Source of the DNA: Chloroflexota bacterium
Lineage (GTDB): Bacteria > Chloroflexota > Anaerolineae > Anaerolineales > Villigracilaceae
Assembly (NCBI GenBank): GCA_019873735.1
Contig: JAIOAQ010000008.1
Location: 16,651 to 80,650 of the forward strand
DNA: 64,000 nucleotides
Direction: 5' to 3'
Shown here in pieces: positions 20,501 through 42,357 of this stretch. Made by a program: the position numbers and the translations under genes. The notes beneath the pieces were generated by a model, which was not told the DNA's origin, did no database searches, and saw only the letters and a list, made by a program, of their open reading frames with translations. The number at the start of each line of letters is the position of its first letter. The first letter of the stretch is position 1.

Positions 20501-22368
20501 ATCAACAGATTGCTGTCATGTTCGTCGTAAACGTTTTCTTCTTTTAGGTTCTGAACGGCCATCAGGCCAAGGAACTCATCGCCGATCATTAGAGGCACCC
20601 CCAGCCAGCTTTTGGGGACCTCGCCAATGATGGTAATGTGGTTCTCCTTGAGCCACTGGGCCACATTTTTTCTCAACAGCAAGGGTTTTCGGGTTTTGAA
20701 AATGTATCCTGTCATGCCCTCGTCAGCACTCAGGGAGACAATTGTCCGGTCGACTTCGGATTCGGTGACGTTAACCGGGTAATTGACCCGATGTGTGCTT
20801 TTGTCATAGATGCCGATGAAGAAATTTGTGGCATCCATCAACCGGGCAACGCCTTGGTAGGTCTCATTCAACACGTCTTGGGCGTCTAACTGTGAACTCA
20901 ATGCCCGCCCCAGGTCGTTCAAGACGCTCATTTCCTCGGCGCGCAGCCGGGTTTGTTCAAAAAGGCGGGCGTTTTGAATGCCAATGGCTACCGTATCGGC
21001 AAAAGATTCCAGTAGTTTTAAGTCGTCCTGGCTGTAGGCGTTGGGCTGATAACTTTGGGCAGAAAGCACGCCGATGATTTCACCGCTGAAGCGGAGCGGG
21101 GTTGCAATAACAGAACGCGGCGATCTGTATTTTTTTTCTGCATCGGCAACGCGCTTGAAGGGCAAAGGCTCTTTTTCAAGATCATTTGCAATGTATGAAT
21201 GACCAAGGCTGAGGACATAGCCGGTGAAACCGGTTTTGACATCATGCTGTTGGGGTTCGACACGGACGCCATTGTCAATGTCATAGGCATTAACAAATAC
21301 ATCTGTCCCAGGGTCGTGGAGGCTGATGAGAAAGGCATCGGCAGGCAAGATGCGGCCGATGATACGATGGGCCGTGCTGTAAACGTCTTCCAGATTCAGG
21401 TTTTGGCTGATTAAGCGACTTAATTCAACCAGAGTGTTTAACTCTTGCGCGCGGCGCTGTTCGGCCTCAAACAGGCGCGCATTCTCCAGTGAGATAGCCG
21501 CCTGGCTGGCGATTGTGCGCAGCAAGTCAAATTGATGTTCGTCATAGAGCCTGGTTTTTTCTGTGCTTTGAAGCACAATTGCCCCGATGACTCTTTCGCC
21601 AATTGCCAACGGGACGCCCATCCAACACAAAGCAGGCCGGTTATTGCCGACGAGAATGATCTCCAGACCCAATTCTTTGACGGTGTCTGTAACGTTTTCG
21701 GCAATGAAGAGTGGTTTGCGCGTGCGGAGGATGTAATCGGTCAGACCTTTGCCCAGTTGCCGTGCAGGCGGGGAGTAGCGCACGCCATGTGATGTTGCAT
21801 AGGGAAATTCGACTCGATTCTCTTTTTCATTGTAGAGTGCAATGAAAAAGTCCTCTGCTTTCATCAACTGACCTGTGTATTTATGAATGGTTTGACAGGC
21901 AGCGTTGATATCCAATTCTGCAGACAATTCGCGCCCCATTTCGTTCAAGATGGCAAGTTCATTGGCCTGGCGTTGGGTTTGCTGGAAAAGGCGCGCATTT
22001 TCAAGGGCAAGTGAGAGTTGGTCGGCTACTTGCTTGACAAGCAGTTTTTCCTCTTCGTCCCATTGGCGGTCTGCATCTTTATCAATAATTTGCAGGGTGG
22101 CCCAGTTTTGAGCGTCAAAGGGGAAGGCAAGTGTCAATTGTGCTCCATCGCCGGCTTTTGTCTTTGTATCGGTGAGGACCTGGCTTGAGGGCGCCGGGAC
22201 GGGTCTGGTTTTCGACTCCTGTCCTGTTTGCTGGCGCACAGGCGCAGCCGCTTCCCCGCTGACGGGTAGACTTTTGGTGCCTTTTCGGCTCGCTTTGGGT
22301 TTGGTTTCTTCGGGTGTAAGGCCGTCAAATAGATTCTTAAGCCGGCTGTTCACTTGTTTCTTTGACAT
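17542..22368 (-). CDS. Giant cytoplasmic hybrid histidine kinase: basic disordered N-terminus, mini-GAF, 4 GAF, PAS, sensor-family GAF, HisKA, HATPase_c, REC, REC
   Basis: 1608 aa. H-box MSHELRTPLNSI (His1131), N/G boxes (LLSNAAKF, DSGPGI, GGSGLGLSIS), REC1 (TLDIMMPGYDG) and REC2 (VLDLFMEDLDG). ENARLFE-terminated GAF repeats recur. No TM segment was seen. Confidence 0.9.
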   Translation of the reverse strand: MSKKQVNSRLKNLFDGLTPEETKPKASRKGTKSLPVSGEAAAPVRQQTGQESKTRPVPAPSSQVLTDTKTKAGDGAQLTLAFPFDAQNWATLQIIDKDADRQWDEEEKLLVKQVADQLSLALENARLFQQTQRQANELAILNEMGRELSAELDINAACQTIHKYTGQLMKAEDFFIALYNEKENRVEFPYATSHGVRYSPPARQLGKGLTDYILRTRKPLFIAENVTDTVKELGLEIILVGNNRPALCWMGVPLAIGERVIGAIVLQSTEKTRLYDEHQFDLLRTIASQAAISLENARLFEAEQRRAQELNTLVELSRLISQNLNLEDVYSTAHRIIGRILPADAFLISLHDPGTDVFVNAYDIDNGVRVEPQQHDVKTGFTGYVLSLGHSYIANDLEKEPLPFKRVADAEKKYRSPRSVIATPLRFSGEIIGVLSAQSYQPNAYSQDDLKLLESFADTVAIGIQNARLFEQTRLRAEEMSVLNDLGRALSSQLDAQDVLNETYQGVARLMDATNFFIGIYDKSTHRVNYPVNVTESEVDRTIVSLSADEGMTGYIFKTRKPLLLRKNVAQWLKENHITIIGEVPKSWLGVPLMIGDEFLGLMAVQNLKEENVYDEHDSNLLMAFANQAAIALQNALLFEQMRQRAERERLTSEISTIFASVDPIQVSAAIDQVLERLGNFSGVDRAYVFLIDPRGELMSCANEWCSPNTDHQIENLQNIPINTFPFLIDKLRKGQTFYFPKVADIPKEGRAERIEFERENIQSIICSPLMERGNLIGFLGLDAVQAPRTWNEEEQNLLKFAGEAIVTALGRQQAVQALSKSESELRALFSAMTDVIIVYDKDGRYVRVAPTNPNRLYKPPEDMVGKTIQEVLPAETHEPFMQAIRKTLTTGETTSIEYPLEIGGNGYWFYATVTKLSDDQVFWVSRDITERKRAEEAIRRQNEYLATAAEVGRLITSTLDLSLLFKRAVNLIRERFGFYHAAIFTVEETGFNAVLKEATGDAGEEMKRRQHSITVGSKSVVGMVTSTGEAVIINNTALDPLHRPNPLLPETRAEAGIPLRVGNRVIGALDIQSTEVDAFTPDNAAVLQILADQIAVAIDNARSYELAQQAVKEMREVDRLKSQFLANMSHELRTPLNSIIGFSRVILKGIDGPISELQQQDLTAIYNSGQHLLGLINDILDLSRIEAGKMELTFDEVNLNDTINSVLSTITGLIKDKPITLKKIVPEELPPVRADAMRIRQVLLNLLSNAAKFTEQGTITLEAGVKAGPSGHPEIMISVTDSGPGIAPEDQAKLFQPFSQVDSSPTRKTGGSGLGLSISQHLVQMHGGRIGLHSSVGKGSTFYFTIPVYRGKDDAGASKENRVVLAIDDDPQVVSLYERYLQPQGYQVISLTDPTKAAERARQLKPFAITLDIMMPGYDGWQVLQDLKANPETRDIPVVICSIIEDEEKGFNLGAADYLVKPILEDDLLNALNRLNSDGSIREVLVIDDDADDLRLIAKILSENGRYKPILAEGGKQGWEAITTATPHAIVLDLFMEDLDGFAILERLRAEEQYRQIPVVVVTGGDLTPTQREQLNAFGQRLLQKGLLKEDELLSALENALRRIQGP

Positions 22369-23122
22369 ATTCCATTAACTCCTGGGCCAAAACACGATAT
22401 TGTTGCGAACCACGACTACCCGGTCTGTATTCAGTGATAGGCAGGCCTGAGATAGGACTTTCACGCAATTTGGTGTCGATTTCAATAACTGTGTTGAACA
22501 ATCCTTCTCCAAACGTAGCGCGCAATTGCTCATAAATGTTTCTATGGGTACGGTTGCGCCGGTCAAGCAATGTCACCAGGATGCGGTATGCAAGGCCGGG
22601 GTTGTTATCTTCGCGCACGCGCCGGACAATGGACATCATGCTGCGCAGGGCATACGCCGAGAAGTATTCAGCCTGGGTGGGGATAATGAGCAAGTCTGCG
22701 GCGCTCAAAGCATTCAGGGTAATTGTGCCCAGGGCTGGCGGGCAGTCAAACAGAATGTAATCGTAGGGTAGTTCTCCGGCAGATTCCAGGGCGTGTTTCA
22801 GGGCGGTCAGGTGATCCACCCGCATGGGCAAGTAATGTTCGGCCGTCTCTATTTTTGAACCGGATGGGAGGATCGACAGATTCTCGATGCCGGTCTTTTG
22901 ACAGGCATCTGAAACAGGAAATGCCTCAAGCAGCACATCGCCCGAGGTGTGCTGTTCCTTTTCTGGATCAATCCCTACTGCCAGGCTTAGATTAGCCTGG
23001 GGGTCAAGATCGCAGAGCAAGACTCTCTGCCCACTTTCGGCCAATGCTGCACCGAGCGAGACGGTGGTGGTCGTTTTGGCGACCCCGCCTTTTTCGTTTG
23101 AGATTGCAATTTTATATGCCAT
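22337..23122 (-). CDS. Orphan ParA/Soj/MinD-superfamily ATPase
   Basis: 261 aa. Deviant Walker A ISNEKGGVAKTTT, Walker A' LLCDLDPQ and Walker B YILFDCPP. No parB lies nearby. The stop overlaps the kinase start by 32 nt. Confidence 0.9.
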   Translation of the reverse strand: MAYKIAISNEKGGVAKTTTTVSLGAALAESGQRVLLCDLDPQANLSLAVGIDPEKEQHTSGDVLLEAFPVSDACQKTGIENLSILPSGSKIETAEHYLPMRVDHLTALKHALESAGELPYDYILFDCPPALGTITLNALSAADLLIIPTQAEYFSAYALRSMMSIVRRVREDNNPGLAYRILVTLLDRRNRTHRNIYEQLRATFGEGLFNTVIEIDTKLRESPISGLPITEYRPGSRGSQQYRVLAQELMEYVKETSEQPA

Positions 23123-23149
23123 ATCTGCCTCATCAGCAAGGATGCTTGC

Positions 23150-26035
23150 CTATTTGCCTTTTTCTCTGGTTTGCGTTTCAGGTGGAGGGGCATAGGGAAG
23201 AATCTCCACATGGCTGGCTCCCAGCACCTGACGCAGTTCCGCCAGCGCTGTCTGGATCATGCTCTCTGGGTCGGTTTTGCTGCGGATCTTGGTGGTGATT
23301 TCTGAAACGGTGCGTTCACGCAGGGCGCGTCGGGTTGTTTCCTCAAACAGTCGGGCGTTTTCAAGTGCCAGCGCTAACCGGTCGGAGATGGAAGACAAAA
23401 GGGCAATTTCATCATCATCCCAGCGGCGATTGGGATCTTGCGAACGAATGTTCAAGACGCCGATGACTTGCTCGCGCAGACGGATGGGAATTGCCAAAGC
23501 CGGCGTTTCCTCGTTTTCTTTGGCTTTTGAGCCTTTGGGATAAATGGTTACAAACTTGCCACTTGCAAGCGCTTGCATGATTTCTGCCCGCTGAACCGTC
23601 TGGTTGACAGGCCTGCCGCCGCCGATGGTTTTGTGGTAGCCCAGATATTTTCTGGTTGCAAGACTCTTCCAGGATTGAGCCAGATACTGCCTTTGCAGTG
23701 CCTGGGCTTCCAAAAGGGCGCGCTGTAAATCGGTAACCAGCCTCGAATTGTGGATGGCAATGGCAATTTGATCGGCAAGGATGCTGAGGGTTTTCAGGTT
23801 TTCTTCTGAAAAAGCATTTGCTTCTGTGCTTTGAACATCCAAAACGCCGATGATTTCATTGCCGATTTGCAAGGGCAGAGCGGCCTCTGAACGGGTTTCT
23901 GGCAAGTCGGGGTTATCAAAATAGACAGCATCTTGTCCAACGTCAAGGGCAATGCGGGCTTTTCCGGTTTCGGCAACGTTGCCAACAATGCCCACCTGTC
24001 CTATTTTCAATTTGTGCTGCCGTTCCAACATACGTTTTCCGCCGGGGCTGTTAGCGGCTTGCAACACAGCATACTCGCGGTTTTCGTCAATCAAGAAGAT
24101 GCCAACGTGATAGAAAGAGAATTTTTCGCTGACCAGTGATGTGACCAGTGGGAGCAAGGCTTCTGTTTGTTGCTGCGATGCAGCCACCTTTGCGACTTCG
24201 CTGACCAACTCTAACTCCCGCGCCCGCTCCGCGCTCCTGTGCATGGCCTGCTCCAGTTCTGCCGTGCGTTCGGCGACGCGCTGTTCCAGGCCAGACAGCA
24301 TTTGGCGGATTTGGGCTGTCAGTTCATTGAATGTGGTCGCCAGGTAGCCAACTTCATCATTGCTGGCAACTTTGGCCTGCGTTTCCAGATTCCCGACCTT
24401 GAATTGCTCAACGGTGTGCGTCAGGTCCAGGATTGGGCTGGTCAGTTGACGCGCAACATGGATTGCCATGAAAGAGACGACTGCAGTGATAAGAACGCCA
24501 AGCAGGTTAATGGTGCGAACCCGCTGCTGCACAAGCGCAATTGTCTCTGCTTTTGCCTGATAGACGATTGCTCTCCAGGGCAGGTTGTCAACTGCTTCTC
24601 TCTTGTTGGGAGAAAAGATTGGGGCTGCACTCAATATGCTATCGCCTTGCTCCAGGTTGACCTCAACATAACTTTCCTTTTCAAGATTTTCCAGCGCCTG
24701 AACGAGTTCTGGCGGTGACAGGTGAATTCCATCCAGGGCTAAATGCTTCGTTGGATTGCCCAAGAAGACGTATTCTGCCCTGCCCGTTTCACCAATCGGT
24801 TGGGAAAGCAGTTGTTGCAGTTCGGCAATAGTATAGCCAGTCTGCAATACGCCCATAATATCCCCTGTTGCCCGATCGCGGATGGGGACGGCAATGCGGA
24901 AAATGTACATTCCGATGCTTTCGTCATATTCGGGAGTACCGATAAAGATGTCTCCTGCCCCGTTATTGTAGGCCTTTTGCCACCATTCCTCGTCTGCCTG
25001 GTAATAGTCAGAAGTTCGATTTGTTGCCGCTACCAGGCCGCCGAGGACATCGGTGACGATCATTTCGACATGACCGGGGAAAGACTGTTGGAAGTTCCTC
25101 AACTGTGATGAAGCGATATTGTATAAGCGCCCGTTGACAAGAGGCTGTTCGTTATTGTTAGCCGCATCTGCCTGACGCCATATCGCATCAAAGCGATTGA
25201 TTTTCTCCATCTCCTTTTGCAAATCGGGGTCGTGCGACCGATTTGCGCGCGCAACTTGCCATTGAATATCTGCATTTGTGCTGAGCGCCTGAATGGCGTC
25301 TATTTGCTGGGCCAGGATGCTTCCCATAGCCTGTCCGCGTGACTCGGCTATAGGCTGCAAACTCTTGCCGGCGTTTTCGGTCAAGACGTTTGTCAGCGTC
25401 AGGGATGTGATCTGACCAAAGGCAATGGAAATCACGGCTGCAATGCTTACATACGCGATTAAAATTTTGTTGACGAATTGTAGTTTTCCAAACTGCGTAA
25501 TGATCAGAAAGAAAAAGACGAGAATTGTAAGCAGAATCAGGCCTGCACTGAAGCGTTCAACAATGGGGACAAGGATGCGCTCGTAAGGCACCAGGATATC
25601 TATCAGGCCAATGGCCAGGCTGGCCAATATTCCGGCAAAGATGACGCGCACCAGCGAACGTTGAGGCAGGGTTTGAATGCCAATCAGGACTGTCAGCAGT
25701 AAAGTGGTGATTCCTAATGCGCTTCCAATGTTGGCGATCAAGGCGGCTACACTTAACGCAGCGTAGAATACAATGCCAATCAGGGTCCAGGCCGCCAGGG
25801 CGTGATCGCCTTTCTGATTTCTACGAATGACCCAAAAATTTGCAGCGATGACGATGGTGAACGTTGCGATCAGCAGGAAATACCGCCAGTCTCTTTCTGA
25901 GAAGAGAAGGTATATGTAGAACGCTATTGGAATGACCGCCAGAGCCGACGTTAATAGTGCCAGGCGGTGAGTGTTTTGCTGCTGTGTGCTGGCTTGCTCA
26001 TCTTCATACGTACTTAGATTGACCGTTTGTGTCAT
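23150..26035 (-). CDS. Output-less membrane sensor paralog 1 (polytopic N-terminus + Cache-like + HAMP + signalling helix + GAF + mini-GAF + conserved tail)
   Basis: 961 aa. About 6 N-terminal TM segments, then an extracytoplasmic Cache-like segment and a further TM. HAMP is followed by LEQRVAERTAELE. The GAF carries FYHVGIFLID ... NPDLPETRSEAALPL ... GVLDVQST. I see no kinase, cyclase, MCP or phosphatase motif. Confidence 0.8.
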   Translation of the reverse strand: MTQTVNLSTYEDEQASTQQQNTHRLALLTSALAVIPIAFYIYLLFSERDWRYFLLIATFTIVIAANFWVIRRNQKGDHALAAWTLIGIVFYAALSVAALIANIGSALGITTLLLTVLIGIQTLPQRSLVRVIFAGILASLAIGLIDILVPYERILVPIVERFSAGLILLTILVFFFLIITQFGKLQFVNKILIAYVSIAAVISIAFGQITSLTLTNVLTENAGKSLQPIAESRGQAMGSILAQQIDAIQALSTNADIQWQVARANRSHDPDLQKEMEKINRFDAIWRQADAANNNEQPLVNGRLYNIASSQLRNFQQSFPGHVEMIVTDVLGGLVAATNRTSDYYQADEEWWQKAYNNGAGDIFIGTPEYDESIGMYIFRIAVPIRDRATGDIMGVLQTGYTIAELQQLLSQPIGETGRAEYVFLGNPTKHLALDGIHLSPPELVQALENLEKESYVEVNLEQGDSILSAAPIFSPNKREAVDNLPWRAIVYQAKAETIALVQQRVRTINLLGVLITAVVSFMAIHVARQLTSPILDLTHTVEQFKVGNLETQAKVASNDEVGYLATTFNELTAQIRQMLSGLEQRVAERTAELEQAMHRSAERARELELVSEVAKVAASQQQTEALLPLVTSLVSEKFSFYHVGIFLIDENREYAVLQAANSPGGKRMLERQHKLKIGQVGIVGNVAETGKARIALDVGQDAVYFDNPDLPETRSEAALPLQIGNEIIGVLDVQSTEANAFSEENLKTLSILADQIAIAIHNSRLVTDLQRALLEAQALQRQYLAQSWKSLATRKYLGYHKTIGGGRPVNQTVQRAEIMQALASGKFVTIYPKGSKAKENEETPALAIPIRLREQVIGVLNIRSQDPNRRWDDDEIALLSSISDRLALALENARLFEETTRRALRERTVSEITTKIRSKTDPESMIQTALAELRQVLGASHVEILPYAPPPETQTREKGK

Positions 26036-26071
26036 TGTTTATTACCTCGTGCCAGACTGCAAAGACAAACG

Positions 26072-28231: not shown

Positions 28232-28283
28232 TCCAGGTGCTCCAAAAGAGTTTGTACCGCGGCGGCTTAAGATACTTTGCAGG

Positions 28284-29477: not shown

Positions 29478-29508
29478 TTTTTTCTCCTAACTCAGATAAT
29501 GTAAGGTG

Positions 29509-31746: not shown

Positions 31747-31766
31747 GGAGTGTCCTCTCAGACAAA

Positions 31767-32783: not shown

Positions 32784-32848
32784 TATCTTTTACTCCTCTG
32801 TGATCAGGTTAAGAAAGAATGGTTATCGAGGACATTTTCTCTGCTGGA

Positions 32849-34777: not shown

Positions 34778-34780
34778 CTC

Positions 34781-36838
34781 TTATCCCTTTCCATTGTCGG
34801 CTTTTGAGCCTGTAGCGTTGGATTCTGGTAACGTCTTTTTGCCCGCCGATTCTGCTGCCTTGTCCTGGGGCCGCAAACCAAGTTGAACAAACGTGCGAAC
34901 CGCGCCCAGCGCCTTTCCCAACTCGCGAGCCGTTTGTTGCAAGACCTTTTCGGTGCTGGTTGATTTTCGTATCTCGCTTGCAATCAGGTTCATTTGATGT
35001 TCGCGCTCAGCCAATCGTTGTTGTTCTTCAATCAATCGGGCGTTTTCAACGGCCAAACCGACCTGGTTGGCAATTTCCTGGGCAATGCTTTGTTCGCGCT
35101 CATCCCAACCCGCATCTGCCCCGACCCTTTGAATGCTGATCTTCCCGATCTTTTGGCCGCGCAATCGGATGGGAACTTCGATTTGCGCTTGCCCATTCCC
35201 GGATATTTCTGCCGTCTCCTCGGTCAGCGCCTGGATGCCAAGGGGGGTGTACACGTAGGCATGTCTTTTACGGCTTGTGTACGCTTGCCAGGCAGAGCGG
35301 ACACTTTCCATACTGGTGCGTTGGAGTTGTTGAAGCGCTTGCTGGCTTTCGGCATACAAGCGGGCATTTTCGATGGCCAATGCGATCTGATCTGCTAACG
35401 TTTGCAATACCATGACGTCGTCCTGGCTGAATGCCCGCATTTCTGTGGACTGAATATCAAGGACGCCGATGAGTTTGCCGCGTACGGACAGCGGCAGGGC
35501 CATTTCGGAACGGGTGTTGGGGAGGTCAGGATTGTTGAAAAAGACGGCATCCTCTCCAACGTCCAGCGCGATGCGTGGACGGTTGGTGGCTGCTACCATC
35601 CCAACAATGCCCTGGGAGCCAATACGCAACTGGTGGCCGCGCTCTAACATTTTTTGTCCGCCGGTGGATGATGCTGCCTGCAAAACCACATGCTGACCGG
35701 CCTGGTCGGTAATGAAAATTCCGGCGTGATAGAAACCGAACCGCTCCGAAATCAGATTCACCGCCCGGTTAAGCAACTCGTCCACCTGCCGGATGGCAGC
35801 CGCTTCGCGCGCCACCTGAGCAGCGGCTTGCAATTGAGCAGTTTTCCGCTCCAAATCGCGCGTACGCTTTTGGACTTCCTCATCCAGGTTCTTTTGCAGG
35901 TTTTCCAGGCGTTCGAGCATGATGTTGAATTGGATGGTGGCCAGGCCGATTTCATCGGTGCCGATAATATCGGCACGCTGGTGGATTTCTCCGCTTTCAA
36001 TTCGCGTCATGACATTTACCAGGTGGGCCACCGGCCGATAGATCATGTGGGAGACGATAATTGCAAGAATGCTGCTCACAATCACTGCAATTACGGCAAC
36101 CCAAATCAGTTGAACGCGCAAAGTGTACAGGCTAATGGCTTTGCCGTTCAAGATATCCACTGCAACCTGGTAAGCGCGCGGGGCTGTGGTTAAAAGCGCT
36201 ATTCCAACAGAGGATATGACCAATAAGATCAGCCGTTCCTGGAGTCTGGTTCCGCTCAGGCCGCGTTTTTGAAGCTCTGGCGAACGGGGGAGCAAAACCT
36301 GCCGCGCATTGGTCAGTCCGTATTCAATCAGAAGCACGCAACTGATGATCAGCATGGAGGCCGAAAGAAAGCCGCCAATGATCACATGGATGGCTTGCTC
36401 TACCGTAGCCCCTCCGATGTAATACATGTAAGCAGCAGCCGGAAGAATGGTCTCCAGGGTTGCAATCACCAGGGCGGCAATGCCGAATTTCCATGGATAA
36501 CTGGTAACCTCTCTCCAGGCCTGCACTTCCAGTTCGGGATTCTCGACCCCGCTTTTTCCCTTGCTCCAGGAATACAAACGCTTTCGGGCAGCGCGGGAGG
36601 CTTCATACATGTAAAGCAGGAGAAGGATATTGGCTCCCACAACAAAGGCGAAAACCGCTCCAGTCAATTGTTGGGTTTGTTTGGGCGTGAATTCTACGTT
36701 GACAAGGATGTAGTAGATTCCCAGCCCGGCAGCCCCAAAGGAGAGCAATTGGGCCAGAAACTGAATCACAAGCAGGTATGAACCACCCAGCGAACTTAAG
36801 AGTGTATCCAAAAAAGCAGGAACATATCGTTTGTTCAT
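34781..36838 (-). CDS. Output-less membrane sensor paralog 5 (6-TM N-terminus - HAMP - signalling helix - GAF - mini-GAF - tail)
   Basis: 685 aa. Six hydrophobic segments, then HAMP (DEIGLATIQFNIM), FYHAGIFITD, DVGEDAVFFNNPDLPNTRSEMALPL, GVLDIQST. Confidence 0.8.
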   Translation of the reverse strand: MNKRYVPAFLDTLLSSLGGSYLLVIQFLAQLLSFGAAGLGIYYILVNVEFTPKQTQQLTGAVFAFVVGANILLLLYMYEASRAARKRLYSWSKGKSGVENPELEVQAWREVTSYPWKFGIAALVIATLETILPAAAYMYYIGGATVEQAIHVIIGGFLSASMLIISCVLLIEYGLTNARQVLLPRSPELQKRGLSGTRLQERLILLVISSVGIALLTTAPRAYQVAVDILNGKAISLYTLRVQLIWVAVIAVIVSSILAIIVSHMIYRPVAHLVNVMTRIESGEIHQRADIIGTDEIGLATIQFNIMLERLENLQKNLDEEVQKRTRDLERKTAQLQAAAQVAREAAAIRQVDELLNRAVNLISERFGFYHAGIFITDQAGQHVVLQAASSTGGQKMLERGHQLRIGSQGIVGMVAATNRPRIALDVGEDAVFFNNPDLPNTRSEMALPLSVRGKLIGVLDIQSTEMRAFSQDDVMVLQTLADQIALAIENARLYAESQQALQQLQRTSMESVRSAWQAYTSRKRHAYVYTPLGIQALTEETAEISGNGQAQIEVPIRLRGQKIGKISIQRVGADAGWDEREQSIAQEIANQVGLAVENARLIEEQQRLAEREHQMNLIASEIRKSTSTEKVLQQTARELGKALGAVRTFVQLGLRPQDKAAESAGKKTLPESNATGSKADNGKG

Positions 36839-36842
36839 TGCA

Positions 36843-38426
36843 TCATTCCAACTTCAGTTCGATAATACCCTTGGTCGCATTGAGCGCCTGCCCAAGTTCT
36901 TTGATAGCCGTTTGCAGGATGGCGTCAATGGTTACCGCCGACCAGACCTTACTGGTGATGTCAGCAGTGGTGTGTTCTTGTATGGCGGTCTGTTGAGTCT
37001 CTTCAAGCAGACGGGCATTCTCAAGCGCCAAGGCGGCTTGGGCAGCCACCGCCTCAATCACGCTGATTTCCTCCGGACTTAGTTCGCCTTCGCTTTCAAT
37101 GACAATGTTGCCAATGGGGGTTTCGCGCAACGCCAGCGGTATGCTTATGCTCTGGCCGCTTTGCTCTGTTTCGGCCATTCCTACGTCAACCTTTATCCCC
37201 TTGCGTTTTTCGATCTGGCTCCAACTGCTGCTTAGATACTGCCGGTATACGCTATTCAACTCGTTCAGGTTTTGCTGGGCTTCCTGGTATAAGCGCGCAT
37301 TCTCAAGACCAATTGCCACCTGGCTGGCCATACCTTGCAGGGTTTCGATTTCTTGCGGCCCAAAGGCTGCTTCTTCTGTGGACTGTACGTCCAACGCACC
37401 CAGCACGCGGTCGCCGACAATGAGTGGAAGAGCAATCTCTGACCGTGTTTCAGGAAGCAGCGGGTTGTTGAAGCGAACCGCTTCTTTGCCCACATCCAAC
37501 GCCACCCGCGCCTCGCGCGTGCTGATAGCGGCTCCGACCATGCTCTGGCCGCTCACCTCCAGACGGTGACGGTTTTGGAGCATGATTTTACCGGCCGCCC
37601 CGGTCGCGCTTCTTAACTCAGCCCACTGGCCACTTTGGTCTATTAAGAACAAGCCGGCATAATAGTAACCAAATCGCTCGGTAATCAGGTTGACAATGTG
37701 CTCTATCAGTTCTTCCTGGTTGAGGCTTGCGTTTGCAGCGCGCCCGATTTCAATTACAGCCCGCAACTGTTCCCTGCTTCGGTTGGCCTGAATTTCCAAT
37801 TCTTCTTTAAGCGCAGTCAATTCCCTGTTAGCAGCGGCTTGCGCTTGCTCGCTTTGCCGGGAACGTCGCAGGGCGCTATTCATCCGGCCGATAAGCACAT
37901 AAAGGAACAGAGCAACCGCCAGAAAGATGATCGCCTGGGTAAACGTATCCTGGAGTGTGACCGGCTCCAAATTTGAGATCAGCCGCCCGGCGCTTTCCTG
38001 GTAACCGATGTAAATGATTGCCAGCACGGTTAGCAGACCAAAGATCAGCGCGCCGCTTTGCCCCAGCAATAAGCCGGCAAGCACCAACATGGCCGCATAG
38101 GCGATGATGGCCTCGTCGCGAATCCCTCCCCGCATAGCGATTGACGTAACGGCGGCAAAGATGGTCAGCAGCATTAGAACGCGGCCGGGAAGGAGAATAT
38201 TGAAATATGCCAGCACCAGCGTAATGGCCGTCAAAATACTTGCAACGATCAGCACGCCTCGATTACGGGGGTCAACCACAAGATTGAACAGCAAAATTGC
38301 TGCCAATGCCAACAGCACAATCCCCAAAAGCACAAGGGTGAGCCGGCGCTCGGCCTCGAGATCGGCCTCTGACTTTTCTGATCGGGCAGGCGGGAAGATT
38401 CTTGCCAGAATTTGCGGGAATTTCAT
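36843..38426 (-). CDS. Output-less membrane sensor paralog 6 (polytopic N-terminus - coiled coil - GAF - mini-GAF - tail; no HAMP seen)
   Basis: 527 aa. About 5-6 TM segments are joined by a coiled-coil linker directly to the family GAF (YYYAGLFLID, NPLLPETRSEIALPL, GALDVQST). Confidence 0.75.
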   Translation of the reverse strand: MKFPQILARIFPPARSEKSEADLEAERRLTLVLLGIVLLALAAILLFNLVVDPRNRGVLIVASILTAITLVLAYFNILLPGRVLMLLTIFAAVTSIAMRGGIRDEAIIAYAAMLVLAGLLLGQSGALIFGLLTVLAIIYIGYQESAGRLISNLEPVTLQDTFTQAIIFLAVALFLYVLIGRMNSALRRSRQSEQAQAAANRELTALKEELEIQANRSREQLRAVIEIGRAANASLNQEELIEHIVNLITERFGYYYAGLFLIDQSGQWAELRSATGAAGKIMLQNRHRLEVSGQSMVGAAISTREARVALDVGKEAVRFNNPLLPETRSEIALPLIVGDRVLGALDVQSTEEAAFGPQEIETLQGMASQVAIGLENARLYQEAQQNLNELNSVYRQYLSSSWSQIEKRKGIKVDVGMAETEQSGQSISIPLALRETPIGNIVIESEGELSPEEISVIEAVAAQAALALENARLLEETQQTAIQEHTTADITSKVWSAVTIDAILQTAIKELGQALNATKGIIELKLE

Positions 38427-38432
38427 TCCGAA

Positions 38433-41400
38433 TTATCTCCTCTCGGCATCCGAATCTTTACCGTTAGACTTCTCGGACGGTTCAGGGCTAACCCCTAGCC
38501 TGACCTGCATTCTCCGGGCATTGACCACCCGAGACAGTTCGCTGGCGGTCGTCGCGAGAATCGTTTGCATATCAGTCGAGCGGCGAATCTTGCTGGTTAT
38601 TTCGTAAATCAGGCGCTCGCGTTCTGCCTGCCGACGAATCTGATCCAGCAGGCGGGCATTGGCAATAATCGCCGCCAGGCTGCCGCCCAGGGTTCCCAAC
38701 AGTTCTTCATCGTTTTCGGTGTAGGCGTTAACCTGCTCGCTCTCAACGTTCAGCACACCCAGCACCTCGTTCCGATAAAGGAGCGGGACGGCAAGTTCAG
38801 AACGCGTGTTGGGACTGACTTGAATATAGCGCGGATCGTTTTCGATATTGTCCACCCGCAAGGGTTTACGATGTGCGGCCACCCAGCCAGTAATCCCGGT
38901 GCCGATCGGCACACTTACGTTGGCAACATCCTCTTCCGAATAGCCGATGTAGGCTTTGATTTCGAGCATTTGCTTCTCTTTGTTGAGCAGCATGATGGCT
39001 ACCCGGTCGCCGCCCAGGGTGACCTGCAAACCCTGCGCCGCACTGTAAAGCGCCTCTTCCAATGTGGTTCCAGAGGCCGCCGCAGTGGTGACATGATGAA
39101 GCAGACGGTGCTGCGACAGGTGCTCCTGCGTTTCAGCAAATAATTCGGTGTTGATGACCGCCACTGCCAGCTGGTCGGCCAGAATCTGCAGCGTTTGCAG
39201 GTTGCTCTCGCTGAACGCGTAAGGCAGGTTGCTTTGCACATCCAGTGCTCCCAGAATGCGCTCACCGACCTTGAGAGGGATGGCGGCCTCCGAACGCGTA
39301 TCTGGTAGCAGGGGATTGGCAAAATAGGTGACGTCTTTGGTGGTGTCGTTGACGACCAGGGGTTCACCGCGCCCGGTCACGTAGCCGATGACCGATTTAG
39401 ACCCAACGCCCAGTTTATGACCCATGCGTTTCATCTGTGCCCCGGCATCTCCGGTAGCCTCTCGCACGGTGGCGTATTCTCCGCTTGGATCAATCAGAAA
39501 AACCGCCGCGTGATAGAAGCCAAATCGGTCGCGAATCAAGTTGATGGCGGTATGCAGCAATTCGTCCAGGTTGAGCGATCGGCTGATATCGCGGGCAATT
39601 TCGGCTGCTGTTTGCAATTGAATACTTTGCGTGCGGCTCTCTTCCAGCAGGCGAATATTATGAATGGCTCCTGCCACCTGTGCTGCCACTGCATTCAAGA
39701 AACGCAGGTCGTTTTCATCGAACTGATTTTCGCGTCGGTTATCTTGCAGGATTAACGCGCCAATCGCTTCGCCTCTTGCCAGAAGCGGCGTCCCCAGCCA
39801 GGATTTGGCAGGCTGCCCAATTGTCTTGGCTCCCAGCGCCGCGAGGCGCTTCTCAACGCTCTCCACCAGCATGAGCGGTTGTCTGGTGCGAATCAGGATG
39901 GAGGTGAGCCCCTCGCCCAGAGGGAAGGGTTCCAGCGTTGTGATTTGCCCGTCTTCGTACAGGTAAGGAACAGAGATGCTTTCTTTCTGCCTGTCGTACA
40001 GCGCGATCATGAAACTGTAATCGCCAACGGTCTGACGAATCTGCTCGTGCAGCGTGGTATAGAAAGTCTGCAAATCACTGGCCACCATCACCGACTGGCT
40101 GATGGCTGCCAGGGCCTCCATTTCTGCCAGGCGGCGTTCGATGGAACGCGAAGCATTGATCTTTTCCAGCGAAGTGGCGACAAAGCCGGCCAGGTTGGCG
40201 TAGGGTTGCACATTGGCCGCCGTGAGGCTTCCCTTTTGTGTCGAACCAAGGACAATCAGGGCGGTCAATTGTTCGTTGACGGTGATGGGCAAAAAGGCCG
40301 CCATCTGGCAACCCAACTGGCGGGCATAGCGTATCAGCGTAGTAGGAAGGTTGGACGGTTTGGTCAGGTCGGCCAGCGTCAACCCGGATGCGAGATGAGG
40401 CGCCAGGTCGACAGGAGAAAGATCCAGTTTACGAGATGAAAACTCCACCATTTGTATCCCGGCTGCATCCGTTACAGAGATTGGCTCAAAGGCTTTGCCG
40501 CTGGCGACCAGCACGGCGGAAATGTAAGGAGCGTCAGATAAGACCTGACCGACGCTCTGCAAGACACTTTCTTCGGTTTGCGCTTCGGCAATCTGACGGC
40601 TGGCTCGATACAGGCGTTCCAATTCATTCAGGTTGACCTCGGTGGAGGCGGCCAGTTCAATGTTCTGGATGGCGCTGGCAATCTGGTTTGCCAGGGTTTG
40701 CAGGGTGACAATGGTGGCATCGTCGAAGGCTTCAGGTTCTGTGCTTTGTACATCCAGTGCGCCCAGCACAAGGCTGCCGGCGGCAATCGGAATGCCCACC
40801 TCGGCGCGTGTATCGGGCAGGAGCGGGTTCTTAAAGTGCATGGGGTCTTCGCCAACATCTGAAGCCACGCGCGGTTTGTTGTTCTCGGTTACCCAACCGA
40901 TAATAGACTGCGAACCGACTGCCAGGCTGTGACCGCGCTCGCGCATGGCCTCTGCCGCCGGCCCGTAGACGGCCCGCAGCGTCGCGGTTTTGCCGGCCCG
41001 GTCGAGGAGGAAGACGCCGGCATGGTAGAAGCCAAAACGTTCAACAATCAACTTCACGGTTTTGTTCAGCAGGTCGTCCAGATTGATTGCAGAAGTGATG
41101 TCCTGGGCGACTTCTGCGGCTGTACGAATTTGGCTGGTGCGTTCTTCCACGCGCGCTTCCAGCGATTGATAAAGGGTGCTTAATTCGTCAGCCATGTGGT
41201 TGAACGACCAGGCCAACAAACCGAGTTCGTCATTGCGGCGGCTGGTCAGCCGTTCTTCAAAGTTTCCCTCCGCAAAATGGCGTGTGGTCTCCACCATGTT
41301 AAGCAGAGGCTTGACCAACTGATTCGTACCGACCCACACCACGCCTGCCATGCCTACAATCGTCAATGCAACTAGAATGGCCATGAAAGGCGCCAGGCTG

Positions 41401-42350
41401 TTCAGTTGTTGAAAGACGCGCTCTTCGGGAATCTCAACCACAAGCCCTGTATTGAGGAAGCCCGCCCAGCGGCCGACGGCAATGACCGCTTCGCCATCTG
41501 GGTTGACAAACATGATCAACTCGTCGCCTTTTCCGGCTTGCAGTTTCGAGGCAGATAGCAAGTCGCCTTGTTGAGCAGATGGCTCAAATGCGGCCAGTTC
41601 TTTGCGGTAAGGGTTGATCCCAATGAAATGATTATCAGCGGTGACAAAATACGGCTTGAAACTTCGGTTGAAGGTTGTCAGGTTGTTTAAGATGCTTTGG
41701 ACGTTCTTCTGCTCCGATATGCCTATCAAAGCCCCGTTGCGTCCCCTGACATTGCCAAATTGATTGTATTGTTCAATGGTGATGAAGACAATCTGATCAG
41801 GATAAAGCGGTTCAAAGTTATAGACGGCCAACGTCTCATCATGGGTGGCCTGAATCAGGTCGTAGAATGGCGAGCCGGATATATCTACGCCTTCCCAGGC
41901 GGGGTTGCTTGCAATATGAATGACACCGTCAGCGCGCACAAAGAGGAAGTTGTTAAAGACAGGAGTCCCTTCCTGGCGGTTGACCTTTTCAAAGATGTCA
42001 ACCACGTTGCTTCGCTCTAGTTTGAATTGCAGGGTACCACGGCTCACCGGCAGAGTCTTTTCCAGTGCGTCGGTAAATTCCTTCATGCGAACGATACGAT
42101 TCAGACGTACCGCTTTTGCACGTACCGAGCCTTGCACTTGAGTCATCTGGGATTCCATTGCAGTCTGAATCTGCGCCGAAATCTGGTTTAGCAGCAGGGC
42201 ACGTGCTCGCAGGTAGGCGCTGGCGCCCATGATTAATAGGGGAATGATCGAGACAGCCACCAGCGTGAGGGCCATGGTGCGCGCTAACCGCCCTCGGAAT
42301 TGGGGCCTCTGGTCTTTTTTCGGTTCAGGCGGGACAGGTGAGATTGTCAT
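38433..42350 (-). CDS. Output-less membrane sensor paralog 7 (TM - double-Cache-like - TM - HAMP - five GAF-like domains - tail)
   Basis: The ORF track gives 38433..42461. I place the start at Met38 (42350, MTISPVPPEPKK), 7 nt after the upstream RR stop, because the longer form would overlap that gene by 104 nt. Two family GAFs are present (FYHAGVFLLD and FYHAAVFLID; NPLLPDTRAE/SE), plus three other GAF-like repeats. Confidence 0.8.
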   Translation of the reverse strand: MTISPVPPEPKKDQRPQFRGRLARTMALTLVAVSIIPLLIMGASAYLRARALLLNQISAQIQTAMESQMTQVQGSVRAKAVRLNRIVRMKEFTDALEKTLPVSRGTLQFKLERSNVVDIFEKVNRQEGTPVFNNFLFVRADGVIHIASNPAWEGVDISGSPFYDLIQATHDETLAVYNFEPLYPDQIVFITIEQYNQFGNVRGRNGALIGISEQKNVQSILNNLTTFNRSFKPYFVTADNHFIGINPYRKELAAFEPSAQQGDLLSASKLQAGKGDELIMFVNPDGEAVIAVGRWAGFLNTGLVVEIPEERVFQQLNSLAPFMAILVALTIVGMAGVVWVGTNQLVKPLLNMVETTRHFAEGNFEERLTSRRNDELGLLAWSFNHMADELSTLYQSLEARVEERTSQIRTAAEVAQDITSAINLDDLLNKTVKLIVERFGFYHAGVFLLDRAGKTATLRAVYGPAAEAMRERGHSLAVGSQSIIGWVTENNKPRVASDVGEDPMHFKNPLLPDTRAEVGIPIAAGSLVLGALDVQSTEPEAFDDATIVTLQTLANQIASAIQNIELAASTEVNLNELERLYRASRQIAEAQTEESVLQSVGQVLSDAPYISAVLVASGKAFEPISVTDAAGIQMVEFSSRKLDLSPVDLAPHLASGLTLADLTKPSNLPTTLIRYARQLGCQMAAFLPITVNEQLTALIVLGSTQKGSLTAANVQPYANLAGFVATSLEKINASRSIERRLAEMEALAAISQSVMVASDLQTFYTTLHEQIRQTVGDYSFMIALYDRQKESISVPYLYEDGQITTLEPFPLGEGLTSILIRTRQPLMLVESVEKRLAALGAKTIGQPAKSWLGTPLLARGEAIGALILQDNRRENQFDENDLRFLNAVAAQVAGAIHNIRLLEESRTQSIQLQTAAEIARDISRSLNLDELLHTAINLIRDRFGFYHAAVFLIDPSGEYATVREATGDAGAQMKRMGHKLGVGSKSVIGYVTGRGEPLVVNDTTKDVTYFANPLLPDTRSEAAIPLKVGERILGALDVQSNLPYAFSESNLQTLQILADQLAVAVINTELFAETQEHLSQHRLLHHVTTAAASGTTLEEALYSAAQGLQVTLGGDRVAIMLLNKEKQMLEIKAYIGYSEEDVANVSVPIGTGITGWVAAHRKPLRVDNIENDPRYIQVSPNTRSELAVPLLYRNEVLGVLNVESEQVNAYTENDEELLGTLGGSLAAIIANARLLDQIRRQAERERLIYEITSKIRRSTDMQTILATTASELSRVVNARRMQVRLGVSPEPSEKSNGKDSDAERR

Positions 42351-42357
42351 GGGAAAC

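What the first reader, a model, noticed from the sequence alone, without database searches (positions are those of the whole stretch)
21988..42350. Every sensor paralog ends in a conserved truncated half-GAF tail, and the kinase begins with the complementary half-GAF module
Seen in sequence. After the last ENARL(F/L)(E/D)E helix, all seven paralogs end with a ~45-60-aa tail of the same pattern:
- RRALRERTVSEITTKIRSKTDPESMIQTALAELRQVLGASHVEIL
- RRSKQDRIIADLTAKLGSSMQMDSILQTAAEEISKIVQDSEVLIQL
- KRAQKEKIISDISARIGATVNFQNILQTAAEELGHAIPGSEVVIQL
- QRASQEKAVSDITAKVSSSIQIESVLRATAEELSRILQDTEVLIQL
- RLAEREHQMNLIASEIRKSTSTEKVLQQTARELGKALGAVRTFVQL
- QTAIQEHTTADITSKVWSAVTIDAILQTAIKELGQALNATKGIIEL
- RQAERERLIYEITSKIRRSTDMQTILATTASELSRVVNARRMQVRL

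Inside the kinase the same pattern (RAERERLTSEISTIFASVDPIQVSAAIDQVLERLGNFSGVDRAYVFLID) is simply the start of a complete GAF domain: helix 1, helix 2, strand 1. The sensor tails therefore look like GAF domains cut off right after the first strand.

Conversely, after an ~77-aa disordered region the kinase starts with only the C-terminal part of such a module (LTLAFPFDAQNWATLQIIDKDADRQWDEEEKLLVKQVADQLSLALENARLF, nt 21988-22137), with no preceding N-terminal half.

Inference (speculative): the tail may be a docking or complementation element. It could pair in trans with the kinase N-terminal half-module, or with other paralogs, and so physically wire the sensors to the kinase.
Basis: partly seen in the sequence, partly recalled or inferred. 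Interest (0 to 1): 0.72.

Follow-up and report, generated by a model that had tools for sequence, protein, structure and literature searches.

The report
Orphan half-GAF ends on sensors and kinase
Seven membrane sensors with no output domain each end in a conserved 50-residue front piece of a GAF domain, and the soluble kinase in the same operon begins with an orphan back piece; the two are always inherited together in Anaerolineales, which suggests but does not prove a plug-and-socket link between sensors and kinase.

Summary
All seven paralogs end in a roughly 49-aa tail. Profile comparison places it on GAF helix 1, helix 2 and strand 1 (hhalign 95.8%). Its closest solved relatives are the N-termini of phytochrome/cyanobacteriochrome-type GAFs.

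The kinase begins with a short conserved helix and about 60 disordered residues. Then comes only the last two strands and last helix of a GAF (97-99%).

AlphaFold2 does not complete either piece within its own chain:
- The tail strand stays unpaired.
- The kinase hairpin sits at the far end of a 46-residue helix from its first full GAF.

Both pieces belong to one conserved operon: sensors, ParA-like ATPase, socket protein, PLP-enzyme-REC.
- Kinase to tails: 75 of 75 informative species loci.
- Tails to kinase: 37 of 38 informative metagenome loci.

Docking in trans fits GAF topology (strand order 3-2-1-6-5-4) but is untested:
- Covariation proved to be clade signal.
- Tails also follow complete GAFs and sit on socket-bearing, kinase-less adaptors.

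Verdict: a real, conserved feature that I found described nowhere; its mechanism is open.

The parts
23192..23338 (-). S1 tail (helix 1, helix 2, strand 1 of a GAF; class I, the sensor next to ParA and the kinase)
   Evidence: Translation checked. Tail HMM 82 bits. Orthologous tails score 74-91 bits about 0.8 kb upstream of the kinase in 75 loci.
26093..26239 (-). S2 tail
   Evidence: 69 bits. In the AF2 model the tail forms helices 309-330 and 335-349, followed by an unpaired extended segment.
29524..29670 (-). S3 tail
   Evidence: 68 bits.
32864..33007 (-). S4 tail
   Evidence: 67 bits.
34880..35023 (-). S5 tail
   Evidence: 60 bits.
36855..36998 (-). S6 tail
   Evidence: 66 bits.
38493..38639 (-). 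S7 tail, which follows a complete GAF domain
   Evidence: 52 bits; not used in HMM training. The preceding GAF is complete.
26240..26617 (-). S2 mini-GAF. It folds on its own and lacks only helix 2. Equivalent modules precede the tails of S1 and S3-S6; the S1 module is at 23339-23737.
   Evidence: Pfam matches only GAF profile positions about 59-129. AF2 gives strands 220-223, 226-229, 249-252, 258-266 and 269-278 and helix 237-245, at pLDDT about 90. DCA recovers the internal contacts.
21988..22137 (-). Kinase N-terminal orphan half-module ("socket"): two strands plus the last GAF helix, of the mini-GAF type
   Evidence: hhalign results. AF2 gives strands 77-83 and 89-95 at pLDDT 61-78 and a helix from residue 105. 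The module is nearly invariant in 57 homologs. Socket HMM 95.8 bits, against 46 or less for the sensors' mini-GAFs.
22138..22317 (-). Kinase disordered linker (residues 18-77)
   Evidence: pLDDT below 50 for residues 20-72. Not conserved in sequence.
22318..22368 (-). Kinase N-terminal conserved motif MSKK..RLKNLF (short helix)
   Evidence: Conserved in 57 homologs. AF2 helix 3-13. The motif goes with adjacency to ParA even in the rearranged locus L056.
17542..22368 (-). Soluble hybrid histidine kinase K: socket, 4 GAF, 1 further GAF, PAS, GAF, HisKA, HATPase_c, 2 REC
   Evidence: Pfam.
22337..23122 (-). ParA/MinD-like ATPase between S1 and the kinase, overlapping the kinase start
   Evidence: Pfam AAA_31/CbiA. 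Present at this position in 75 genome loci and in all 37 metagenome loci that carry a socket.
23150..42461 (-). Array of seven output-less sensor genes (TM, Cache in some, HAMP, GAF, mini-GAF or extra GAFs, tail), with two periplasmic binding-protein genes interspersed

Best explanation
The tail is the output end of these sensors. The sensors have a membrane or Cache part, HAMP and GAF domains, but no enzymatic or DNA-binding domain.

**Shown**
- The last GAF helix of each sensor runs on as one long helix into tail helix 1.
- Helix 2 folds back on helix 1, and the short strand lies on these two helices.
- The tail is therefore a compact helix-helix-strand unit that is not part of any sheet in its own chain.
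- The soluble protein encoded after the ParA-like gene is a hybrid histidine kinase here and a kinase-less adaptor in one sub-lineage.
- That protein presents, behind a flexible linker, the matching orphan piece: strands 5 and 6 and helix 5 of a mini-GAF. Helix 5 continues as one helix into the protein's own first GAF.

**Inferred**
- The tail docks onto this orphan piece in trans.
- In a GAF the sheet order is 3-2-1-6-5-4, and helices 1, 2 and 5 lie together on the dimer-interface face.
- Tail plus socket would therefore rebuild exactly that face: strands 1-6-5 under helices 1, 2 and 5.
- This would join the sensor rod end to end with the kinase rod.
- Conformational changes in the sensor's signalling helix could then reach the kinase without a covalent link.
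- Several sensors could use or compete for one kinase.
For: **Homology of both pieces to adjacent parts of one fold**
- Tail to GAF columns 4-54.
- Socket to GAF columns 119-174, and to the mini-GAF type in particular.
- GAF strand order 3-2-1-6-5-4, with helices 1, 2 and 5 on one face (PMC6392808).

**Both pieces are orphan within their own chain in AF2**
- S2: helix 286-330 is continuous, helix 335-349 folds back, and residues 350-366 have no beta ladder, at pLDDT about 90.
- K: hairpin 77-95 at pLDDT 61-78, then a single helix 105-150, then GAF-1 above 90.

**Coupling analysis**
- DCA on 294 modules shows strong couplings inside the tail: 22, 13 and 12 pairs in the top 200, against 5.5, 3.5 and 4.5 expected.
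- It shows no enrichment between the tail and the mini-GAF sheet.

**Conservation**
- Tail helix 1 and the kinase helix 5-helix 1 stretch are the most conserved stretches of their proteins (p-distance 0.22 and 0.25, against 0.26 for ParA).

**Co-occurrence**
- 75 of the 75 kinase loci with upstream sequence carry 1-5 tail genes.
- 37 of the 38 tail loci with enough downstream sequence carry a socket about 1.15 kb after the last tail.
- The sensors have no output domain, and the kinase has no membrane or Cache sensor.
Against: - There is no direct test.
- The raw correlation between S1 strand 1 and the kinase hairpin (r 0.73, partial 0.30) is not specific. Both sets of columns have equal or higher MI with scattered ParA columns, and other region pairs reach a partial r of 0.47.
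- Five to eight tails of five sequence classes face a single socket.
- The tail follows complete GAFs in S7, P0055 and P0109.
- About 550-aa proteins carry both socket and tail with no kinase, and the next gene (PAS...kinase) has no socket. A tail therefore does not always have a socket downstream of it in the pathway.
- Tail plus socket is only about 60% of a GAF, so one face of the three-stranded sheet would be left bare.
- Co-occurrence is orthologous synteny within one order. It shows that the two pieces belong to one system, not that they touch.
Confidence: 0.38

Rival explanations
1. The tail is an autonomous end cap. It simply terminates a dimeric GAF rod. Two helix-1/helix-2 hairpins form a four-helix bundle, with the strands packed on it, and this stops the last coiled-coil helix from fraying. 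The kinase hairpin is the mirror-image N-terminal cap. Sensors and kinase communicate by some other surface, or not directly.
For: - The tail is internally self-consistent (couplings; pLDDT about 90 in a monomer model).
- It appears wherever a GAF array ends without an output domain: after a mini-GAF, after a full GAF, and on socket-bearing adaptors whose downstream kinase has no socket.
- No specific covariation with the socket was found.
Against: - This does not explain why tail helix 1 is more conserved than the sensor's ligand-binding domains and than ParA.
- It does not explain why the tail keeps a strand with no partner.
- It does not explain why a two-strand hairpin that cannot fold alone is nearly invariant at the end of a disordered tether on the partner protein.
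Confidence: 0.3
2. Tails dock on mini-GAFs of the same or of neighbouring sensors. This could be fold-back in cis, a domain swap in the homodimer, or a daisy chain between paralogs. The sensors' mini-GAF lacks helix 2, and the tail could supply it. The result would be a permuted GAF or a sensor array that the ParA-like ATPase positions.
For: - Artificially permuted constructs (tail + mini-GAF) of S1-S4 align to the full length of Pfam GAF (positions 1-133) with slightly higher scores than the native order.
- The mini-GAF lacks only helix 2 in AF2.
- A few high-ranking couplings link mini-GAF helix 5 to the tail: 114-151 at rank 5, 110-167 at rank 13, 107-147 at rank 21.
- The kinase socket is itself of the mini-GAF type.
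Against: - AF2 keeps helix 5 and tail helix 1 as one straight helix and gives the tail strand no ladder.
- At region level, tail-to-mini-GAF couplings are not enriched (9 against 7.0 expected for helix 5 to helix 2; depleted for the strands).
- The three strong pairs do not follow a consistent helix-packing register.
- Tail and mini-GAF are separable. S7 has a tail but no mini-GAF. P0055 and P0109 have six full GAFs between the two.
Confidence: 0.14
3. The tail binds another operon component, such as the ParA-like ATPase, the stand-alone REC or the PLP-enzyme-REC protein, rather than the kinase hairpin.
For: - ParA and PALP-REC are as tightly linked to the array as the socket is.
- Tail strand-1 columns show high MI with ParA columns.
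Against: - That MI is spread over the whole ParA sequence, which is the signature of shared phylogeny.
- The element that tracks adjacency to ParA is the N-terminal KKK..RLxxLF motif, not the tail.
Confidence: 0.08
4. Tail and hairpin are evolutionary leftovers with no role of their own. They would be relics of gene fission or unequal recombination inside a tandem GAF array.
For: - The sensor C-terminus (strand-strand-helix 5-helix 1-helix 2-strand 1) and the kinase N-terminus (strand-strand-helix 5-helix 1-helix 2-strand 1...) are homologous overlapping junction segments, as a fission with overlap would leave.
- The profile of mini-GAF + tail matches ordinary GAF-GAF junctions in thousands of multi-GAF proteins.
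Against: - Relics would decay. Instead, both are the best-conserved parts of their proteins across at least 75 species and five paralog classes.
- The tail has its own signature, which separates it by 40-70 bits from internal GAF N-halves.
Confidence: 0.04

Closest known systems
GAF-GAF junction of tandem GAF proteins (PDE2A, PDE5, PDE6, CyaB2; phytochrome GAF-PHY spine)
   Same: - The last helix of one GAF continues as one long helix into helix 1 of the next.
- The S2 model's best PDB fold matches are these rods (PDE5A 3LFV, DrBphP 8AVW, PDE6, CyaB2 1YKD).
- The mini-GAF + tail profile matches such junctions in 84,755 proteins.
   Different: Here the second domain stops after strand 1 in the sensors, or the first domain starts only at strand 5 in the kinase. 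Each protein therefore carries one orphan side of a junction.
N-terminal helices and first strand of phytochrome/cyanobacteriochrome-type GAF domains
   Same: The tail profile's best matches among solved structures are exactly this region: 6OAP residues 138-181 (E 1.6e-14), 8W26, 2LB5, 6BHN, 6OZA and AnPixJ 3W2Z.
   Different: The tail ends before the bilin pocket and its cysteine, so it cannot bind a chromophore. It sits at a C-terminus rather than opening a domain.
Donor-strand / fragment complementation (for example chaperone-usher pilus subunits; my own knowledge)
   Same: One protein has an incomplete fold that lacks a strand, and another protein supplies the missing element. This is the mechanism proposed here.
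   Different: - The fold is different (Ig-like rather than GAF).
- Here helices as well as a strand would be supplied.
- The complex is hypothetical.
Chemoreceptor arrays feeding one kinase, positioned by ParA-like ATPases (ParC, PpfA; my own knowledge)
   Same: - Many paralogous membrane sensors with HAMP domains and no enzymatic output.
- One soluble kinase.
- A ParA/MinD-type ATPase in the locus.
- A basic N-terminal peptide on the partner protein.
   Different: - No MCP signalling domain, CheW or CheA was seen (Pfam).
- The kinase is a HisKA/HATPase hybrid kinase with GAF and PAS domains.
Circularly permuted domain (mini-GAF followed by its own missing N-half)
   Same: Permuted constructs of S1-S4 align end to end with the Pfam GAF model.
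   Different: - AF2 and coupling analysis do not place the tail strand in the mini-GAF sheet.
- The two parts are separable in S7, P0055, P0109 and the adaptors.

Membership tests
GAF domain (Pfam PF01590/PF13185/PF13492): tail | Sequence homology to the GAF profile | tested here: met
   hhalign of tail profile A5 against full-GAF profile A6: columns 4-54, probability 95.8%, E 6.5e-9. PDB sequence hits to GAF N-termini.
GAF domain (Pfam PF01590/PF13185/PF13492): tail | Complete fold: six-stranded sheet 3-2-1-6-5-4 between helices 1, 2, 5 and helices 3, 4 | tested here: not met
   The protein ends 3-35 residues after strand 1. AF2 shows two helices and an unpaired segment. The tail is a fragment of a GAF, not a GAF domain.
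GAF domain: kinase residues 78-127 | Complete fold | tested here: not met
   Only profile columns 119-174 are present. Everything upstream is disordered.
Phytochrome/cyanobacteriochrome-type GAF | N-terminal sequence signature | tested here: met
   6OAP E 1.6e-14, 8W26 E 7.9e-13, 2LB5, 6BHN.
Phytochrome/cyanobacteriochrome-type GAF | Bilin-binding pocket and cysteine | tested here: not met
   The tail stops at strand 1, and the pocket-forming segments are absent.
Circularly permuted GAF (mini-GAF + tail in one chain) | The rearranged sequence matches the full-length GAF model | tested here: met
   S1-S4 constructs align to Pfam GAF positions 1-133. S5 and S6 do not.
Circularly permuted GAF (mini-GAF + tail in one chain) | The tail strand is inserted in the mini-GAF sheet | tested here: not met
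   AF2 gives no ladder for residues 350-366. There is no region-level coupling enrichment. This rests on a monomer model only, so a swap in a dimer is not excluded.
Circularly permuted GAF (mini-GAF + tail in one chain) | The two parts always occur together and adjacent | tested here: not met
   S7 has a tail after a complete GAF. P0055 and P0109 have six GAFs between mini-GAF and tail. Of the 35 tails, 14 have no detectable mini-GAF marker.
Split-domain / donor-strand complementation pair | Both partners incomplete within their own chain | tested here: met
   AF2 models.
Split-domain / donor-strand complementation pair | Partners co-occur | tested here: met
   75 of 75 and 37 of 38 informative loci. 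This is synteny within one order.
Split-domain / donor-strand complementation pair | Physical heterocomplex with the predicted strand pairing | not testable with these tools
Covariation was uninformative.
DHp (HisKA) helical hairpin | Phospho-accepting histidine box | tested here: not met
   No HisKA match in any sensor. No conserved His in the 75-tail alignment.
Hybrid histidine kinase (protein K) | HisKA, HATPase_c and receiver domains | tested here: met
   Pfam E 2.7e-21, 3.5e-29 and 6.5e-35.

The most novel reading that the evidence does not exclude
A GAF domain split between proteins serves as a plug-and-socket connector.
- The helix-helix-strand tail of each of five to eight membrane sensors plugs into the orphan hairpin-helix at the tethered N-terminus of one soluble kinase.
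- In some lineages the socket belongs instead to an adaptor that carries both socket and plug, and so could chain head to tail.
- The join rebuilds the dimer-interface half of a GAF and creates a non-covalent continuation of the signalling helix.
- The whole assembly is placed in the cell by a dedicated ParA-like ATPase that recognises the kinase's N-terminal peptide.
Probability: 0.3. Interest if true: 0.85.

Novelty: new variant of a known kind. Interest (0 to 1): 0.6.

Why it matters
**The open question.** Output-less sensor proteins (HAMP-GAF with nothing behind them) are common in genome annotations. How they pass on a signal is generally unknown.

**What this locus offers.** It gives a concrete, conserved and testable candidate: a short terminal module on every sensor, and a matching orphan module on the only kinase in the operon.

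**If the docking is real**
- It would be a way of wiring many sensors to one kinase by completing a fold across two chains. That differs from the known routes: fused domains, CheW-type adaptors, and periplasmic binding partners.
- It would give a portable connector for synthetic signalling.

**If the docking is not real**
- The tail and the socket still define an unannotated family signature. Pfam and NCBIfam list no family for them, and no paper was found.
- That signature marks a large conserved operon in Anaerolineales, an abundant and mostly uncultured group.

Tried and rejected
1. **Circular permutation in cis.** This was attractive at first because permuted constructs match full-length Pfam GAF. 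I rejected it as the main reading after three results:
   - the AF2 model of S2;
   - the coupling analysis;
   - the finding of tails after complete GAFs.
2. **Pseudo-multimer AF2.** I built S1 helix 5 + tail, a GGS linker and kinase residues 61-312, with chimeric alignment rows. It was not counted against the cap.
3. **Mirror-tree test.** S1 strand 1 against the kinase hairpin gave the highest raw r of 18 region pairs (0.73) and a partial r of 0.30 given ParA. Other pairs reach 0.47, so this is not specific.
4. **MI-APC on 101 S1-tail/socket pairs.** Of the top 25 inter-protein pairs, 11 link tail positions 41-49 to socket strand 2, which looked promising. The control with K GAF-1 and ParA columns added showed that both sets pair just as strongly with scattered ParA columns (26 of 30 and 28 of 30 top partners). 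The signal is clade structure.
5. **Third homolog search with the tail-only profile.** It returned only fragments shorter than 90 aa. It was useful only because two of them led to the same operon type in long-read contigs.
7. **Literature searches.** Searches for circularly permuted, split, truncated or domain-swapped GAF domains found nothing relevant.
8. **MadS hit.** The NCBIfam MadS-kinase hit over the mini-GAF + tail (30 bits against a cutoff of 500) is a generic match to a GAF plus its linker helix.

Full report
**What is in the window**

- Positions 15.8-42.8 kb hold one row of minus-strand genes. In order they are:
  - a stand-alone receiver (42358-42834);
  - seven paralogous membrane proteins, S7 to S1;
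  - two periplasmic binding-protein genes, interspersed among the sensors;
  - a ParA/MinD-like ATPase (22337-23122);
  - a 1608-aa soluble hybrid histidine kinase K (17542-22368);
  - a PLP-enzyme-receiver fusion (15796-17472);
  - an EamA transporter.
- Each sensor has transmembrane segments, HAMP (not detected by Pfam in S6; Cache in S1, S2 and S4), one full GAF and a second partial GAF hit that covers only profile positions about 59-129. S7 has three further full GAFs instead of the partial one. None has an output domain.

**Check of the observation**

- A tail HMM built from S1-S6 and 20 homologs scores the seven tails at 52-82 bits. S7, which was not in the model, scores 52 bits.
- The N-halves of the ordinary full GAFs in the same proteins score 11 bits or less. 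The tail is therefore a distinct, conserved element, not a generic helix.
- Profile-profile comparison places it on columns 4-54 of a 176-column profile of the window's full GAFs, which is helix 1, helix 2 and strand 1 (95.8%, E 6.5e-9).
- Among solved structures, the best sequence matches are the N-termini of phytochrome/cyanobacteriochrome-type GAFs (6OAP residues 138-181, E 1.6e-14; 8W26; 2LB5; 6BHN).
- The kinase segment at nt 21988-22137 aligns to the last 56 columns of the GAF profile (97.4%). It aligns even better to the C-terminal part of the sensors' mini-GAF (99.0%, E 7e-18).
The two pieces together cover only about 60% of a GAF. In S7 the tail follows a complete GAF.

**Structure predictions**

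*S2 residues 354-719, with 37 sequences (mean pLDDT 90.7)*
- GAF-1 is a normal GAF.
- The mini-GAF folds by itself: a long incoming helix, two short strands, a helix, three strands and a last helix. Only helix 2 is missing.
- The last helix runs on without a break into tail helix 1 (residues 286-330). Tail helix 2 (335-349) folds back on it.
- The "strand" (about 354-359) has no beta ladder, although its pLDDT is about 90.
- The best fold matches are tandem-GAF rods.

*K residues 1-330, with 58 sequences*
- There is a short helix at residues 3-13.
- pLDDT is below 50 for residues 20-72.
- A hairpin at 77-83/89-95 has only pLDDT 61-78.
- One uninterrupted helix spans 105-150, and GAF-1 scores above 90.
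- The hairpin joins the helix at its N-terminal end. GAF-1 packs around its C-terminal third, so the hairpin cannot be part of GAF-1's sheet.

**Independent evidence from couplings**

- Mean-field DCA on 294 mini-GAF + tail modules (Neff 247) recovers mini-GAF contacts as positive controls.
- It shows strong enrichment of couplings inside the tail in the top 200 pairs:
  - helix 1 to helix 2: 22 pairs, 5.5 expected;
  - helix 2 to strand: 13 pairs, 3.5 expected;
  - helix 1 to strand: 12 pairs, 4.5 expected.
- There is no enrichment between the tail and the mini-GAF strands.
- Three individual pairs between helix 5 and the tail rank high (ranks 5, 13 and 21), but they fit no consistent register.
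- The tail therefore behaves as a compact unit of its own.

**Distribution**

- The mini-GAF + tail profile hits 84,755 proteins, because it is in effect a GAF-GAF junction.
- The tail-only HMM hits strongly only at extreme C-termini, in 36 of the 150 best proteins. It sits either right after a mini-GAF or after a run of full GAFs.
- The kinase N-terminus is conserved as a unit in 72 of 120 listed homologs, several named Anaerolineales. It has three parts:
  - the motif M(S/P)KKK..RL(K/D)(N/K)LF;
  - about 60-90 disordered residues;
  - a nearly invariant stretch, LSLAFQxGxNSWATLQVxDE...W.QDEQLLVKQVADQLSLALENARLFQETQ.
- In the 330-residue alignment, the invariant columns cluster in residues 79-143.

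**Co-occurrence**

*Kinase to tails*
- A scan of one genome per species found 285 relatives of the kinase N-terminus. The best 80 loci are almost all Anaerolineales, Anaerolineae or Chloroflexota MAGs.
- In 75 of them, one to five genes on the same strand upstream end in a tail. The other five have less than 1.1 kb of upstream sequence.
- ParA lies between the last sensor and the kinase in 75 loci, and the PLP-enzyme-receiver gene follows in 65.

*Tails to kinase*
- 80 metagenome loci were found with class-II tails.
- 37 carry a socket (66-106 bits) about 1.15 kb after the last tail, with ParA between.
- 42 of the remaining 43 end less than 3 kb after the last tail.
- The one exception has 3.3 kb of downstream sequence, about the size of one more sensor gene.
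- Two short tail fragments on long contigs lie in the same operon type.

Tails and socket are thus parts of one conserved operon. This is synteny within one order. It proves membership of a common system, not contact.

**Attempts to test contact**

- Distance correlation between S1 strand 1 and the kinase hairpin is the highest of 18 region pairs (r 0.73). Its partial correlation given ParA is only 0.30, and other pairs reach 0.47.
- MI-APC on 101 pairs put 11 of the top 25 inter-protein pairs between tail positions 41-49 and socket strand 2.
- When ParA and K GAF-1 columns were added as controls, both sets of columns paired at least as strongly with scattered ParA columns. The signal is clade structure, and I draw nothing from it.

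**Complications**

- At least 26 protein clusters of about 550 aa have the N-terminal motif, linker, socket and two GAFs, and then end in a bona fide tail. They have no kinase.
- In locus L054 the next gene is a PAS...kinase protein without a socket. L160 shows the same arrangement.
- In L056 the gene after ParA is a membrane sensor that still begins with the N-terminal motif. The motif therefore tracks ParA, not the kinase.
- These cases show that a tail can end any GAF rod, including a socket-bearing one.

**Explanation**

- Shown:
  - the tail is a compact, conserved, unpaired helix-helix-strand end piece on output-less sensors;
  - the kinase or adaptor carries a conserved, tethered, unpaired hairpin-helix;
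  - the two are co-inherited.
- Established knowledge: in the GAF fold the sheet order is 3-2-1-6-5-4, and helices 1, 2 and 5 lie together on the dimer-interface side (PMC6392808). Tail plus socket would therefore form one contiguous block, with strands 1-6-5 under helices 1, 2 and 5.
- Inferred: the tail docks on the socket in trans, joins the sensor and kinase rods end to end, and couples their signalling helices. I give this 0.38.
- Main rival (0.30): both pieces are autonomous end caps of dimeric GAF rods.
- Lesser rivals:
  - tail-to-mini-GAF contacts within or between sensors (0.14);
  - another partner such as ParA or a receiver protein (0.08);
  - functionless relics (0.04), which the conservation argues against.

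**Comparison with known systems and novelty**

- The pieces are fragments of GAF domains, not GAF domains. The tail's closest relatives are phytochrome/cyanobacteriochrome-type N-termini, but it lacks the pocket.
- The proposed mechanism resembles donor-strand complementation.
- The locus logic (many HAMP sensors, one kinase, a ParA-type ATPase) resembles chemoreceptor arrays, but no MCP signalling domain, CheW or CheA was seen.
- Pfam and NCBIfam list no family for the tail or the socket, and the paper library holds nothing on split, permuted or truncated natural GAF domains.
- I rate it a new variant of a known kind, with interest 0.6. The conserved anatomy is solid and appears undescribed, and it makes the question of how output-less sensors signal directly testable. 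The mechanism itself remains unproven.

Noticed in passing
window 22318-22368 (-) and 22337-23122 (-); loci L001-L080, L056: The ParA/MinD-like gene overlaps the kinase start by 32 nt. The protein encoded after ParA always begins with M(S/P)KKK..RL(K/D)(N/K)LF(E)D, followed by a disordered stretch. In the rearranged locus L056 that protein is a membrane sensor, yet it keeps the motif. This makes the motif a candidate ParA-partner (ATPase-activating) peptide.
   Followed up: partly
proteins P0184-P0256; L054 9995-11650; L160: A sub-lineage has soluble proteins of about 550 aa with the N-terminal motif, linker, socket, two GAFs and a C-terminal tail, but no kinase. The kinase (which begins with a PAS domain) is a separate downstream gene without a socket. 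Carrying both a socket and a plug, such proteins could in principle chain head to tail.
   Followed up: partly
window 15796-17472 (-) and 14768-15718 (-): A PLP-dependent enzyme (Pfam PALP) fused to a receiver domain follows the kinase in 65 of 80 related loci, and an EamA transporter follows it here and in L081 and L082. A metabolic enzyme may be the regulated output of the system.
   Followed up: partly
tails, all seven (for example 23192-23338): The tail profile matches the N-termini of bilin-binding phytochrome/cyanobacteriochrome GAFs in the PDB far better (up to 57 bits) than it matches the ordinary GAFs next to it in the same proteins (11 bits or less). This hints that the tail derives from a different GAF subfamily.
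   Followed up: partly
window 28284-29477 (-) and 31767-32783 (-): Periplasmic binding-protein genes (Peripla_BP_6 and Bmp/PnrA-like) sit between the sensor genes. A homolog of the first was found in only 1 of 80 related loci, so they look like a lineage-specific addition, possibly ligand-delivery partners for the neighbouring sensors.
   Followed up: partly
window 42358-42834 (-) vs 38433-42461 (-): The longest S7 reading frame overlaps the upstream stand-alone receiver gene by about 100 nt. The true S7 start is probably a later ATG.
   Followed up: no
sensor mini-GAFs, for example 26240-26617 (-): The mini-GAF is preceded by a conserved helix carrying an RQY...W..L motif and a GY(R/H)Y strand. 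It lacks GAF helix 2 but is predicted to be well folded. It is a recognisable sub-type of GAF, and Pfam matches it only over its C-terminal half.
   Followed up: partly
L083 (metagenome contig Ga0209381_1000026, 453 kb): This contig carries seven tails, ParA and a socket. It is 92% identical to the S3 tail, so it comes from a close relative of the window's source organism.
   Followed up: no
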